Assembly (NCBI GenBank): GCA_026770705.1
Contig: JANJGN010000034.1
Location: 5,456,001 to 5,520,000, forward strand
Source: Isurus oxyrinchus
Taxonomy: Eukaryota
DNA length: 64,000 nucleotides
Direction of reading: 5' to 3'
Each line of letters starts with the position of its first letter. The first letter of the stretch is position 1. Shown piece by piece: positions 3,001 through 48,000 of this stretch. A program made the position numbers.

Positions 3001-6000
3001 TTTATCTGCACTGCGTCTAACAAATGTATAGCACTTACTGAATGAAATTAGCAAAACTTTACACCGCATTCCACAAGTAGTCTTACCAACGCCTTGTGTA
3101 ATTGATACAAAAAGGAGAAAAGAACACAAGGTGTTTGTGATAGAATTTGATGGAAATTGATTGGAGCACAATAGCAGATATATTCAGCTGTGGAAAATAA
3201 CCTGAATATGCTGAGTAGCTAACATGGTATTCTACATATGTAAAACATTTTTTTTTAGTGGAAACACTATTTGAAAAAGAGAAAGGTATGGAACCATAGC
3301 AACAAGAGATAATGTTAATGCATTTCCTATTTTTATCATATATAATGTAAATAAAAATGAAACATAGAGACATCAGCAGAGCTGTTATACCATTATGTAA
3401 ATGCAAATTCGAAAATGAAGCAGCAATTGGAATCAATAGCAGTGTGTTATGCTTCAAAGTGTAACGGAAAAAAGATGCCAATGTTAACCGGATCTGCCAC
3501 TTAATTGAAGAAGTACATGGTTACGTCGAAGGAATGAGGGCAAATGCTAAATAAAGGAAGCTGGAGTACAGCTGCAACTTTAGCCTGTATCATTTGGATA
3601 TAGCGAACTTTTCATGTTGCATGTGATTTTTCCCCTCTTTCATTAAGCACACGATGGAATGGACAACATGATTTCAATTCGTCGGCATGCAGAGCTTATC
3701 CAATTTGTACAGAGAAATATGATTATACACAGTTTTAATACAGTTGGTGCATTCGTGTCCTGAATTTTCAGTTAATTTTCCATAATATTTTAAAATGTGT
3801 GTCATTGTATCAGTAATGTGCCAGTGTGAATTGAATTATCATAAATGTAAGAAAATATATTGGGGCGAGATTCAACTTAGGTAATGTTAACACAATTCAG
3901 CATCAAACGGAGCATAAAAGTGTGCCCGATTCAATTCTAACAGTTTATCACTTACCTCCAAGTTGTTTTTTGATGGCGTTGACATTTTTTTTCTGACATG
4001 AGTTTCCTGCAGTGGTCATTTAGTCTGGGAGCTGGAGCCAACAGTGAAAACTCGCCTATTAGTTAACTTCTTAGCCTCAGCAGGAACTTGGTGGCTTTAC
4101 ACTTCGGTGAATGGGGAGATATATATTGTTTTCTTTCCCCTGTGGCAAGAATTACCCGCCACTGAGTGTGTGATAATGGTGTGTCTCCACAGCGTGCAAT
4201 AGATTGAGTGTACATCGGCAATAAATGTGAGACATTTCACTTTCTCTACTGTCATGAGAAAGCTTTGGGCGCAAAAGTAATGTCCTGTGTGTCACGTAAT
4301 GAGTAATTTGAAAATATGATGTTGTTCTCAATGTTGTTTCTGACGATTCAATGTTTAATTTTGTCAGATTTGAAAAAGTGTGAACGAGAGCGGGAGGCAA
4401 ATGGTTAGAGACAATTATTTGTGCAATGTGTAAATTTGCGAATAAAAGTTATGAAACCATTATTGAATTATGACAAGGATCCGAACAGCAAATTTTTCAA
4501 CGGAGGTCACAATAGCTCGGCGCAGCACTCAACATCCCCGTTATATGGCACCATTTGCAATAGTGCATTAATATCATAAAAATGCAATCATAAAATCTTC
4601 AAGCACAGAAGGGGGACTTTTCGGCCTTTTTGCTTGTTGCAGCTCTTTTCAGCACCGTTTCAATTAGGCCTACCTCAAACTCTTCACGTTTGCTATGCGA
4701 TAATCTCGTTTCCAAGTAGATATATATTCCCATTTTTCAGTTCCCATCGAGTCTCATTCAACCATCGTGGCATGCAATGTAATCTAGATCAATACAATGA
4801 GATATGTAATATACTCCTCGTGATCTTGCGTCTGTTTACTTGCCTTAATTATTTAAACAATGTGACGTGCACATGTTTACACCCTTTCTATTAAGATGAA
4901 ACCATTCGTTGTTAGATCCAATCATTGCCTCACAATTTTGAATGCATCAGTTAATTTGTCTATTAACGTTTTGATGTCTAAACAGAAAAATCTCAGTTTC
5001 TCCTCTCTTTCAAAGGATGTGAAACCCCATAACGATTGATCCACTCAATTGTTTGTTATCAGCATGTTCCTGCATGTAATTATTTTAAAAGAATGCCTTC
5101 TGCTGCTTCGATGCTGTGTTCTGAAACAGCCATCCTAAAAGGCTTAAACAAACTCCACACCCTTAATCGTTTACCGGAATCATTAAGTCCTACTTACTTA
5201 GTCATGTTTCTCATTCATGTTAATACATGCTACCTTGAATTGATGCTTAATTATGTGTTGTCATTTTCCTGGCAAACCTTTGATATATGCACGCTGTTAA
5301 AAACGCTACAAAATGTTTTATTGACTTATCTCACTATTAATTTATTGGACAGAGGCAGCATTGGACAAATGTGAGAAAGGTAGGATTTTATTAATTTTTC
5401 TCTACAATCTGCAATATCTGCTCCCAATTCTGAAATTTGGAGGTAATTTGAAATAATTATCGAAACCGTCGAGCTCGGAAAAAGGATATTCTCAATATTA
5501 CGAACTTTATACAATCATTGCATCTCTGTCCTCAACCCTACTTCCATTCGTCCGCTGTGTTGGAAAGGCAGTGGCACCTTTATGTTAGAAAAACTCTGCT
5601 TGTGGCCCTTGTAGCAAATGACCTTAAATGTAATTTGTATAGATTTGTACATCAATCCTTTAGTTTGACATCAAGTTGCAATGGAAAACCATCAGCTGAT
5701 TTCACAAAGGCTTTGGAAAAAAATAAAATCCATTTTTTTTTTGCTTCAGATGCAGGGTAACACATCAAAGAACTTGTTATACATTGGTTGGTAACGACCA
5801 ATAACGTTCTCTCCAACAGGATGGTGGTACCTGAGACAATTATTTCAGAATGAAATTGAATAGCAGACGCTTTATTTGAAAAGCCTTGCTGAGATATGGG
5901 CAGAATATGTTGTTGTCTCGATCTCAATTTCTGGAATTTATTTTCCAAAGCTCTCCAACATTCTCCACCTCTTTGATTGATTGGGAGCATTCTTTAAACC

Positions 6001-45000: not shown

Positions 45001-48000
45001 AGCTGCTTGATCGCATCCAGGACAAAGCCGCCCGCAAAATCTGCGCCCCTTCCACACACATTCACTCCCTGCAGCAACTACGTACGTTGGAATCAGTGTA
45101 TGCCTGTGCTAGATGTACTGCAGAATATCACCAAGGCTCCTTTGTTATTACCTTCTAAACGTACAGCTTCTACCTCCTGAAATGATAGGGGCAACAGGTG
45201 CATGGGACCACCAACACCTGACGGTTCCCCTCCAAGCCAGTCACGAATCTGTATTGGAAATATATTGCCTTTTCTTCAGTATCGCTCGGCTAAAACCTGG
45301 AACACCCTTCCTAAAACACTATAGGTGTGCATACTTCACAAGGACTGCAACCGTTCAAGAAGGCAGCTCACGACCACCTGCTCACATGCAAGTACCAATG
45401 GGCAATGTATGCTGGCCCAACCAGCAAAGCCCATATCTCGTAAATAAATTAATAAAAAAAATACTGACCACAGTGCAGCATTTCGCTGAATAATGGGTCC
45501 AAGTATTAGATTCTTCCTTAACACCTAGAAGCCAAATATCTACCCAGCCAGGTGGAAAATGCCGAAATATTCCCTGTCCAAAAAATGTGGACTTTAATTA
45601 AAAGAAACCAAGTTGGAAGGTGCCAGTAACAGTTCTATCAGTGCCACTTAAAAAAAAATAGGCTGTTGAACAATGCATACTTTGGATTCTGCCAACATTA
45701 TTTGGCTCCTGACATTGGTGCACCTTGTTTCAAAGATCCCAGCAGTACTCACGCCAAGCCATGGCGTGAGAGTGACACCCGTGATATCAACGTGGCATAA
45801 AATTTACCCTGGAAATTTGAAGCAAATTGGCTTTGTGACGCGGCGGGGGTGGGTGGGTGTCCACTTTTTGTCATTAGATCAAGCAGTAGTGGAGATGTTT
45901 GTGGTTTTTAGAATGTAATCGGATAAACCCAAAGACATTGGAGCATAAATTCTTCAGGGAAATTTTTCCCACCTAACCATTTTATTTTTCTTCATCAATG
46001 ACCTCCCTTCAATCATAAGGTCAAGCAGAATTGGGCATGTTCTGCTGATGATTGGACAGTATTCAGTCACAATTCCTCATTTGTGCTTTAAGGCAAAAAT
46101 GGCTTGAAAATACGCAGGCTTGGGCAATATTTGAATTGAAATTGTCGGCTATGCAAGGGGCAGGCAATAGGAATTTACAACAGGAGAAAATTTAATCATG
46201 TTCCATTGACAGTGAAAGGCATTGTCAACTCTGATTGCCTTACCAGATAAATGCTGGGGATGAGCTTCTTTATAGAGCTTAATTGACTAGCGATATAAAG
46301 GTTGTGGCTGTAAAATCGCGTCACACTCAGGAAACTATGCAATGAGTAATGCAAACCTAGGCTCCCAAAGCGTTTTCCCATGTCCAATGCACCGGTTAGA
46401 ATAGCGATGGACATTGCCTGCAAGGCTGCAACTCCATCATGACAGAATAAATATGACGGCATCCAGGATATAATGATGACAATAATAATAAAAACAATTA
46501 GCTCGATTCTTCAGAATCTTATGCATTCCTGGACCATGAATGCAAAATGACAGTTTGGCTTTCGGTAAAAATGATGCACTGCAGCATCTTATCACTTGAT
46601 ATTCGGCCGCAACTTCCATATCTGTATCATAAACCAGGTCGATAGGAAAACCCAGAAAGTCTACAGGAATACCAACGCACACAATGTACTCTTTAAAAAA
46701 AAACTACAGAGCATTCTGTTTTTGGGAAAAAAAATAGTTACATGCTTTTACACGTGACTGAGTCAAAATCGTGGAGGTTCTTTGCTAGCAGCACTCTAAC
46801 TGTGCATGCACCTGATGAACTGTAGTGTTTAAAGGTGGCTCACCATCACATTCTAAAGGGAAAATATGTTTGGCTGCCCTTGCCAGTGACGCTCATGTCC
46901 TGTGAAGGAACACATTTGAAACCGATAGTAAAGTTTTTCACGTAGGAAAAGCGCTTCCAATTTTATCTGCATACATCCTCCAAATTGGTTGAAAATATGT
47001 GGAAATTTTTGAGACGATTAGGCACCATGCAATCATAGATGTGTTTCTGTCGAATTACTGGTTTCTATTCCTGCAGCAAGCGTGAAGCGACCATACATTC
47101 GAGTGATTGGTCTAATTTTGCTATATGAATGATGATCGTATGAATTCCATGGAACGTGCCAGTGTCCACATCTCGCTCAAAAACACACTCAAAAATTTCT
47201 AACAAAATCAGGTCAAAGAAATGTTAATATTTCCCTTTGAAAGTCATTCGGTTAGGTCTGCATTATTCAAATGCATTTTCTGTGCTAAGTTTAAATTCTA
47301 CAATCTGTATTTATATGAACGCAGAAAGAAATTTGAAGAACAAACAAACAGGTAAGAAGTGAACAGGCAAATATATTTGGGAAGATCACTTAAGCTAAAC
47401 AAAATAAAATCAACAGCTCCGCCCGGTCTGACGCATGGAAATAGATGTATCACTGTTGAGGGGGCCATTTGGAAGTATGGATCTTGTTATTAATGAATAG
47501 TAAATTCGATTAAAAAAACAGACAGTTTTTGCTGAATCTCGCTATAAACCTCTGATTTGGCTACAGGTGGAGAATTGCTTCCAGCTCTGTAACCCACATC
47601 TTGTGAAGAATGTTCATGCTGTTGAGCGGGGGCAGAATTGATTTTGCGAAATGAGTCAAATAATGCGATACTTTAGCTGTAACGTTAATTACGCTAAGCT
47701 ATGCATGTGAACCTTAATTCAAGAACCGAACTTCAACGTTGTCAAACGCTATGGAACAAAGAAATTGCGTTATAAAAGTACCTTCTTGCAGTAAAGAATT
47801 ATTTCTATGTCAGCCACCTTGAGCTGTTAGCCAACATCCGTTTAGACTCCAAGATTATTCATTGCGCATGTCAACATGCTGAACAATATTTTTGCACTTG
47901 CACTCCAAATGCTTCTTTTTAACATTTATGTGACATGCAAAACATTTATAGTTCATTTTAATCATCTTTTTAACCTATGATGTTTAAAGGAGGGGGTTCG

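What the first reader, a model, noticed from the sequence alone, without database searches (positions are those of the whole stretch)
4368..47351. 27+36 nt exon pair equals exactly three heptads: a splice-level coiled-coil ruler
Seen: gene A runs 36-27-36-27 (4368, 5353, 11487, 11967) and gene B runs 27-36-27-36-27 (13819, 16301, 27602, 39163, 47325). Each pair is 63 nt = 21 aa. The 3/4 hydrophobic pattern continues across junctions separated by up to 11 kb (gene B: L-L-I-L-L-L every 7 residues, with L/K/K/L/C/K/L in the other core position). The exon at 5353 was found after the register predicted a missing 9-codon exon. Inference: duplicating or skipping pairs changes rod length in register, while skipping a single exon keeps frame but breaks register, which could act as a tunable switch.
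Basis: partly seen in the sequence, partly recalled or inferred. Interest (0 to 1): 0.75.

Follow-up and report, generated by a model that had tools for sequence, protein, structure and literature searches.

The report
Mini-exon gene for a heptad rod
The nine tiny exons look real and seem to belong to one plus-strand gene that builds a leucine-striped helical rod from 9- and 12-codon pieces, a variant of a design known from chicken BG genes, with no sign yet of a splicing switch.

Summary
Observation confirmed. All 9 exons sit at the stated coordinates with AG/GT borders, the same phase (1-1) and one open frame. A strict, post hoc filter finds exactly these 9 on the + strand, 0 on the - strand, and a mean of 0.03 in 100 simulated windows.

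Leucines fall every 7 residues across the junctions within each block.

Interpretation partly supported.
- 'Gene A' and 'gene B' are most likely one gene. It runs at least from 1191 to 57264, with six more probable exons: 1191, 3259, 12130, 51143, 53727 and 57241.
- The 27+36 rule is not universal. There are 27-27 successions and a 24-nt exon.
- The register breaks at two block boundaries that carry Gly/Pro or Gly.
- The second core position is only weakly hydrophobic.
- Nothing here shows alternative splicing.

The best reading is a rod gene grown by duplication of symmetric mini-exons, with introns in the acidic e/g codons.

The closest known case is the chicken BG cytoplasmic tail: one heptad per 21-nt exon, split first codon, variable exon number (PMC4046983, PMC5938342).

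The gene could not be named. Single exons are below every search minimum, and the joined-model search was left out.

The parts
1191..1217 (+). probable 27-nt exon (whole codons TQRLLQKT), phase 1-1, first of a repeated exon trio
   Evidence: Pyrimidine-rich acceptor and GTAAGC donor. 17/27 nt and 5/8 residues identical to exon 51143, while the 40-nt flanks match 16/40 and 12/40. Its Leu is in register with the next exons.
3259..3285 (+). probable 27-nt exon (ETLFEKEK), joined to 1191 through split codon A|TG
   Evidence: 20/27 nt and 6/8 residues identical to exon 53727; 3 of 7 codon differences keep the residue; flanks match 14/40 and 10/40.
4368..4403 (+). 36-nt exon of the finding (LKKCEREREAN)
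5353..5379 (+). 27-nt exon of the finding (AALDKCEK)
   Evidence: An internal GTGAGA 9 nt upstream would give T+AA = stop with the next exon, so the 27-nt form is the coding one.
11487..11522 (+). 36-nt exon of the finding (LKALKTKLKDA)
11967..11993 (+). 27-nt exon of the finding (KRRDDAQA)
   Evidence: 15 of 20 pyrimidines upstream (second only to exon 16301 among the AG|A..G|GT exons) and a GTGAGT donor. Starts with A and ends with G like the nine, and is open in phase 1-1. Unverified by transcripts.
13819..13845 (+). 27-nt exon of the finding (QRLIDQLA)
16301..16336 (+). 36-nt exon of the finding (NRRLRDELRDK)
27602..27628 (+). 27-nt exon of the finding (DKLKAKDE)
34558..34593 (+). doubtful 36-nt exon candidate (LQKTIEKERNA); would shift the register if used
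   Evidence: Passes the looser filter; sites shown. Does not follow the G|A border rule.
39163..39198 (+). 36-nt exon of the finding (IKQLKQQLDEC)
47325..47351 (+). 27-nt exon of the finding (RNLKNKQT)
51143..51169 (+). probable 27-nt exon (LQDLLEKT), counterpart of 1191; split codon with 47325 is G|GA = Gly
53727..53753 (+). probable 27-nt exon (KNLFEKEK), counterpart of 3259; split codon A|TG
57241..57264 (+). probable 24-nt exon (IKDLKEK) with GTGAGA donor, in the place of 4368 in the second trio
   Evidence: (the only + strand hit of the strict filter at another length). Similarity to 4368 is weak (11/24).

Best explanation
One gene on the + strand runs at least from 1191 to 57264 and probably beyond both ends of the window. 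It encodes a long, highly charged alpha-helical rod with a leucine every seventh residue. The rod is cut into symmetric phase-1 mini-exons of 9 and 12 codons, plus one of 8.

Introns sit inside the codon of a flanking heptad position: g before the 12-codon exons and e before the 9-codon exons. That codon is G|AN, giving Asp or Glu.

A 12+9 pair is 21 residues, so arrays of such pairs keep the register. Two helical blocks of about 60 and 51 residues are separated by a Gly/Pro-bearing exon, and after a Gly junction the exon series seems to start again.

I take the exon-size grammar to be a trace of how the gene grew. Symmetric exons, singly, in pairs and in larger sets, were duplicated, and only copies that kept frame and heptad register survived. 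The purine-rich coding sequence probably helps such tiny exons to be recognised.

Shown: the exons' signals, phase, sizes, composition, strand specificity and the 7-residue Leu stripe.

Inferred: that they are spliced in this order, that the six added exons are used, the duplication history, the coiled-coil rather than single-helix state, and the role of purine richness.
For: - Borders and frames of the nine exons.
- Strict filter: 9 hits on the + strand, 0 on the - strand, mean 0.03 in 100 simulations.
- Looser filter: 12 of 21 + strand hits are 27 or 36 nt, against 0 of 23 on the - strand.
- Leu columns: L L L R L L L R V across 1191..12130 and L N L L I L L across 13819..47325.
- LIVMF is almost confined to a/d: 5/12 against 0/30, and 8/14 against 2/37.
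- There is no Pro or Gly inside the blocks.
- 11 of 14 known junction codons are Asp/Glu, and they fall at g or e (by arithmetic).
- Exon pairs 1191/51143 and 3259/53727 are alike in the exon (17/27 and 20/27 nt; 5/8 and 6/8 residues, with silent changes) but not in their flanks. The other two frames give 2-4 identical residues of 8-9.
- Exons are 59-83% purine, against 48% for the strand.
- With 12130 included, both block boundaries shift the Leu column by +4.
- Precedent for heptad mini-exon arrays: BG genes.
Against: - No transcript, orthologue or protein match was available, so exon use and order are predictions.
- The filters were designed after seeing the nine exons.
- The second core column is weak (C N C L A A; Q L K K L C K) and more than half of the residues are charged. 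A stable homodimeric coiled coil is therefore not assured.
- g-to-e' pairs are few: 2 opposite and 1 like of 6, and 3 opposite and 1 like of 7.
- Exons of one size class are only 10-17 of 36 nt alike among the four accepted 36-nt exons, and their flanks do not align. Self-BLAST shows no duplicated introns. The duplication history is thus inferred from pattern, not shown.
- The repeat of the exon series rests on two good exon pairs and one weak one (11/24).
Confidence: 0.65

Rival explanations
1. One reading: the 27+36 pair is a splice-level ruler. Pairs are co-skipped or added to tune rod length, and single-exon skipping acts as a register-breaking switch.
For: All exons are symmetric, so any skip keeps the frame. 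No stop arises at new junctions in the 5 single and 3 pair skips tried by index arithmetic. Pair skips keep the Leu column and single skips split it. 3 of the 4 36-nt exons have an unusual pyrimidine at donor +3, which may mean weak sites. BG genes do show alternative splicing and varying exon numbers in their heptad tails.
Against: No expression data of any kind. The chain is not strictly 63-nt periodic (27-27 successions and a 24-nt exon). The register is kept across 27-27-36 as well, so it is a property of the residues and not of the pair size. A shift of 2 or 5 residues is not one of the usual coiled-coil discontinuities (recalled).
Confidence: 0.1
2. The product is a helix but not a homodimeric coiled coil. 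It would be a charged single alpha-helix with a leucine stripe, or a strand that pairs only with another protein.
For: 52 of 93 residues are charged, with K+R 27 and D+E 25. The d column is mostly polar or small, and LIVMF make up only 15 of 93 residues.
Against: A single helix needs no stripe, yet Leu/Ile holds one column over 7-8 heptads per block. Opposite-charge i,i+4 pairs are only 18 of 89. Cys recurs in the d column, as would suit a disulfide-linked pair (inference).
Confidence: 0.2
3. Two adjacent genes, A (4368-11993) and B (13819-47351).
For: The 27-27 succession and the register break between 11993 and 13819.
Against: Same strand, phase, border rule and composition. The gap is 1.8 kb and holds a well-signalled in-phase exon candidate. 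Like exons lie before A and after B. No exon with a start or an end of a reading frame was seen at the boundary.
Confidence: 0.07
4. Chance open stretches or relics of a dead gene.
For: None beyond the lack of outside evidence.
Against: 9 against 0 hits between strands and a mean of 0.03 in simulations. All frames are intact with no stop in 15 of 15 accepted exons. Silent differences occur between exon pairs.
Confidence: 0.03

Closest known systems
Cytoplasmic tails of chicken BG genes (butyrophilin family)
   Same: A long heptad region is encoded by an array of very small symmetric exons with a split first codon. It is presumed to be an alpha-helical coiled coil, and the residues are strongly charged. 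[quoted passage not shown] In BG the a and d residues are the 4th and last codon of each exon, so the split codon is position e, as in the 9-codon exons here.
   Different: BG exons are 21 nt (a few are 18 or 24), one heptad each. Here they are 27 and 36 nt, no single exon is a whole number of heptads, and only the pair is. A second intron position (f|g) is used. Introns here are 0.1-11.5 kb. No Ig-V or transmembrane exon was seen in the 1.2 kb upstream. Sequence relatedness could not be tested.
[quoted passage not shown]
   Same: Helical interaction domains are built from exons of 7 and 21 residues, and a pair of exons (7+21) is proposed to have been duplicated as a pair (passages of preprint 10.1101/2022.12.23.521771).
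   Different: These are plant transcription factors with few exons and no long rod. Their exon sizes are whole heptads.
Collagen genes (exons in multiples of 9 bp, such as 54 and 45) and elastin (all exons phase 1-1)
   Same: A periodic fibrous protein is cut into short symmetric exons whose size is a multiple of the structural repeat. 14 of the 15 accepted exons here are multiples of 9 nt. Recalled from general knowledge; no paper was read here.
   Different: There is no Gly-X-Y and no elastin-like sequence. The period here is 7 residues, not 3.
CD23 stalk (21-residue repeats, each said to be one 63-nt exon)
   Same: A 21-residue, three-heptad unit in a coiled-coil stalk. The heptad stalk is stated in PMC6791321 (passages); the exon structure is recalled only.
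   Different: There the unit is one exon, here two. No lectin exon was seen in the window.
Dystrophin/spectrin-repeat rods and in-frame exon deletions
   Same: The idea is that in-frame exon loss can keep or break the phasing of a helical repeat. Only the search listing and start of the abstract of PMC3748829 were seen; the rest is recalled.
   Different: Those repeats are about 109 residues with ordinary exon sizes.

Membership tests
BG/butyrophilin-type heptad mini-exon tail | exons of 21 nt (rarely 18 or 24), one heptad each | tested here: not met
   Sizes here are 27 (10 exons), 36 (4) and 24 (1) among the 15 accepted exons.
BG/butyrophilin-type heptad mini-exon tail | symmetric exons with a split first codon | tested here: met
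   All 15 accepted exons are phase 1-1.
BG/butyrophilin-type heptad mini-exon tail | Ig-V and transmembrane exons upstream; sequence relatedness of the protein | not testable with these tools
   Only 1190 nt lie upstream of the first exon seen. 18 ORF pieces gave 0 Pfam hits. Single exons are below the search minimum, and the joined search was left out.
Canonical coiled coil | apolar residues at both a and d over at least 4-5 heptads | tested here: inconclusive
   The a column is 4 of 6 and 6 of 7 LIVMF. The d column is 1 of 6 and 2 of 7 LIVMF, plus Cys and Ala.
Canonical coiled coil | no helix breakers within the segment | tested here: met
   0 Pro and 0 Gly in each block. Gly/Pro occur only in exon 12130 and at the 47325|51143 junction.
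Canonical coiled coil | called by a coiled-coil predictor or a chain-pair structure model | not tested
   Needs the joined model, which was left out. Single exons are under the 30-residue minimum of structure prediction.
Charged single alpha-helix | dense i,i+4 opposite-charge pairs and no hydrophobic stripe | tested here: not met
   18 of 89 i,i+4 pairs are of opposite charge, and a clear Leu stripe is present. This is a crude count, not a dedicated predictor.
Collagen-type 9-bp exon rule | Gly-X-Y triplets | tested here: not met
   No Gly periodicity in any exon, although 14 of 15 exon lengths are multiples of 9.

The most novel reading that the evidence does not exclude
A giant modular rod gene has an exon grammar of 9- and 12-codon symmetric exons, with introns always in the acidic e/g codon. 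The cell would read this grammar as a code. Co-skipping of 63-nt pairs would set rod length in three-heptad steps, and regulated single-exon skipping, or use of extra exons such as 34558-34593, would rotate the leucine stripe by two residues to switch pairing on or off.
Probability: 0.08. Interest if true: 0.7.

Novelty: new variant of a known kind. Interest (0 to 1): 0.38.

Why it matters
If transcripts confirm it, the locus is a clean natural case of structural periodicity (7 residues) written into gene structure in a non-trivial way. Neither exon size is a whole number of heptads; only their sum is. Every intron sits in a codon for a surface-flanking acidic residue.

This extends the BG-gene precedent (one heptad per exon). 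It also gives a system in which the effect of exon gain, loss and skipping on coiled-coil register could be read directly from transcript and species comparisons.

As it stands it is a tidy piece of gene anatomy. It is not a demonstrated regulatory mechanism.

Tried and rejected
The other protein tools state minima of 20-30 residues, so no single exon of 7-11 whole codons can be searched. I did not pad or join.
2. The joined spliced model was not built, typed, searched, folded or run through a predictor.
3. Longer exons or domains in the window. 18 ORF pieces from both strands gave 0 Pfam families at E<=0.01. Rfam gave 0 and tRNA 0.
4. Segmental duplication. Self-BLAST found 14 pairs, none involving the exons or their introns. 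The flanks of the four 36-nt exons do not align.
5. A missing 36-nt exon between 11993 and 13819, which would restore the register. None was found; instead there is the 27-nt Gly/Pro candidate at 12130.
6. Candidates 50795-50821 (donor C|GTGGGG) and 54037-54063 (poor acceptor) were set aside as weak.
7. Literature. Six searches found no paper describing alternating 27/36-nt heptad exons. They did surface the BG papers.
8. Schistosome micro-exon genes were considered from memory and dropped, since those encode secreted non-helical products.
Supplementary figures of the BG papers (exon groups, S2, S10, S11) could not be seen and may bear on exon sizes and phase.
10. I do not take the window for human.
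Full report
**What the window is.** It is 64,000 bases with no N, G+C 0.40 and CpG observed/expected 0.53. It has no long domain-bearing ORF: 18 ORF pieces from both strands gave 0 Pfam families. It has no Rfam family or tRNA, and it carries microsatellites and dispersed repeats. It reads as intron-rich animal DNA.

**The observation.**
- Each follows AG and precedes GT.
- Each begins with A and ends with G, so the codon split between neighbours is G|AN (Asp or Glu).
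- Each is open only when read as phase 1-1. Frame 2 is open in 9 of 9, while frame 0 has stops in 7 of 9 and frame 1 in 6 of 9.
- A strict filter built on these traits returns exactly these nine on the + strand (five of 27 nt, four of 36 nt) and none on the - strand.
- At the 15 other lengths tried it finds one + hit (24 nt, at 57241) and two - hits.
- In 100 simulated windows with the same dinucleotide make-up it finds a mean of 0.03 and at most 1.
- The filter was written after seeing the nine, so it shows that they are a class apart; it does not give an unbiased probability.
- A looser filter that does not fix the border letters gives 12 of 21 + strand hits of 27 or 36 nt, against 0 of 23 on the - strand.

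**More exons, one gene.** Six further + strand stretches have the same build: 1191-1217, 3259-3285, 12130-12156, 51143-51169, 53727-53753 (all 27 nt) and 57241-57264 (24 nt).

Two of them are counterparts of two others.
- 1191 and 51143 share 17 of 27 nt and 5 of 8 residues.
- 3259 and 53727 share 20 of 27 nt and 6 of 8 residues.
- Their 40-nt flanks match only 10-16 of 40.
- 2 of 9 and 3 of 7 nucleotide differences leave the residue unchanged.
- The other two frames give 2-4 identical residues of 8-9.
- In both pairs the exons are linked by the same split codon, A|TG.

So the series of about twelve exons that starts at 1191 seems to start again at 51143. The third member of the second trio (57241 against 4368) is only weakly alike, at 11 of 24 nt.

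Between them lies 12130-12156, with 15 of 20 pyrimidines upstream and a GTGAGT donor. It encodes VLGKCKPD. I therefore read one gene of at least 56 kb that probably runs off both ends of the window. Candidates at 34558, 50795 and 54037 are doubtful.

**The register.** I kept the exons apart and gave each residue an index from running exon lengths.
- Across 1191..12130 one column mod 7 reads L L L R L L L R V.
- Across 13819..47325 one column reads L N L L I L L.
- In gene B it fills 8 of 14 and 2 of 37 (4 of 2000).
- The partner column is weak: C N C L A A and Q L K K L C K.
- 52 of 93 residues are charged, and there is no Pro or Gly inside a block.

Every 12-codon exon carries the stripe at its residues 1 and 8, counting the split codon as 0. 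Every 9-codon exon carries it at residue 3. The split acidic residue is therefore position g before a 12-codon exon and position e before a 9-codon exon (arithmetic).

The 21-residue sum does keep the stripe. But the stripe also runs through 27-27-36 (1191-3259-4368), because exon 1191 carries its Leu at another place. The register is a property of the residues, not of the pair size alone.

A and B taken as consecutive are out of register (337 of 2000 shuffles reach the score). With 12130 included, the stripe moves by +4 at that boundary, and again by +4 at the Gly junction 47325|51143. Without 12130 the move is +2. Both boundaries carry Gly or Pro.

**What I could not do.** The gene cannot be named here. 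A single exon holds 7-11 whole codons. The joined step (search, coiled-coil prediction, structure prediction of spliced and exon-skipped forms) was left out.

**How it most likely works.**
- Shown: a strand-specific set of symmetric mini-exons with good signals, intact frames (15 of 15), purine content of 59-83% against 48% for the strand, and a 7-residue Leu stripe that survives introns of up to 11.5 kb.
- Inferred: the product is a long helical rod in blocks of about 60 and 51 residues, with short Gly/Pro breaks.
- Inferred: the gene grew by duplicating symmetric exons and sets of exons, with selection keeping frame and stripe.
- Inferred: the purine-rich coding sequence helps exon recognition.

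Duplication is old. Introns share nothing, and the four accepted 36-nt exons are 10-17 of 36 nt alike.

**The switch idea.**
- By index arithmetic, dropping one internal exon splits the Leu column. In B the best column falls from 6 of 10 LIVMF to 3-4 of 7-9.
- Dropping a pair leaves the remaining stripe aligned, and no stop arises at any new junction.
- This follows from 9 = 7+2 and 12 = 7+5.
- It says nothing on whether cells do it. Three of the four 36-nt exons have a pyrimidine at donor +3, a possible hint of weak sites, but nothing more.

**What is known.** Six literature searches found no description of alternating 27/36-nt heptad exons. They did find the closest precedent, the chicken BG genes. 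I read passages of PMC4046983 and PMC5938342; the supplements were closed.
- Their cytoplasmic tails are built from 13 to 36-37 exons of 21 nt (a few of 18 or 24), each about one heptad, with a split first codon.
- They are presumed to form a coiled coil in a disulfide-linked dimer.
- A paper on size polymorphism from length variation in this region appears in the reference list of PMC4046983. I saw only its title.
- There the a and d residues are the fourth and last codons of each exon, so the split codon is position e, as in the 9-codon exons here.

A plant analogue is the MADS K-domain, with exons of 7 and 21 residues and a proposed duplication of an exon pair (passages of preprint 10.1101/2022.12.23.521771). 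Collagen's 9-bp exon rule, elastin's phase 1-1 exons and the CD23 21-residue repeat exons are recalled, not read. PMC6791321 (passages) states only the heptad stalk.

**Verdict.** The arithmetic and the continuity of the stripe hold. 'Two genes' is probably wrong. The 63-nt rule is a tendency within blocks and not a law. The switch is untested.

It is a new variant of a known kind, heptad rods encoded by arrays of symmetric mini-exons. Interest is moderate.

Noticed in passing
window 52112-52684 and 53267-53647: An inverted repeat pair lies inside the intron before exon 53727: 52112-52335 against 53647-53422 (77% over 226 nt) and 52516-52684 against 53435-53267 (78% over 169 nt). The right arm ends 80 nt before the exon. 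Shorter related copies are at 25862-25935 and 7844-7942. It is probably two copies of a dispersed repeat in opposite orientation.
   Followed up: no
window 4404, 11523, 16337 (donor sites): Three of the four 36-nt exons have a pyrimidine at donor position +3 (GTTAGA, GTCAGT, GTCAGT). None of the other 11 accepted exons does. This could be shared descent of these exons with their donors, or weak sites.
   Followed up: partly
window 5371-5376: An internal GTGAGA lies 9 nt before the donor of exon 5353. It scores higher than the real donor on my crude scale, but its use would create T+AA = stop with the next exon.
   Followed up: yes
window 34558-34593: A 36-nt phase-1 open stretch (LQKTIEKERNA) with fair splice signals lies in the 11.5-kb intron. 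It echoes the LQKT/EKE motifs of exons 1191/3259 and would shift the register if used.
   Followed up: partly
window 62536-63384 and 63629-63859 (+); also 41083-41271 and 55794-56021 (+): These open stretches look, from memory only, like pieces of retroelement reverse transcriptase and a GIY-YIG-type nuclease. Pfam gave no family at E<=0.01 for any of them, so this is unconfirmed.
   Followed up: partly
window 49686-49904 and 54418-54461: Microsatellites: (ATCT) about 55 copies and (AC) 22 copies.
   Followed up: no
window 12130-12156 and junction 47351|51143: With exon 12130 included, the leucine column shifts by +4 residues at both block boundaries (5 to 2 to 6 mod 7). This is the size of a coiled-coil 'stutter' (term recalled). 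Without it the first shift is +2.
   Followed up: partly
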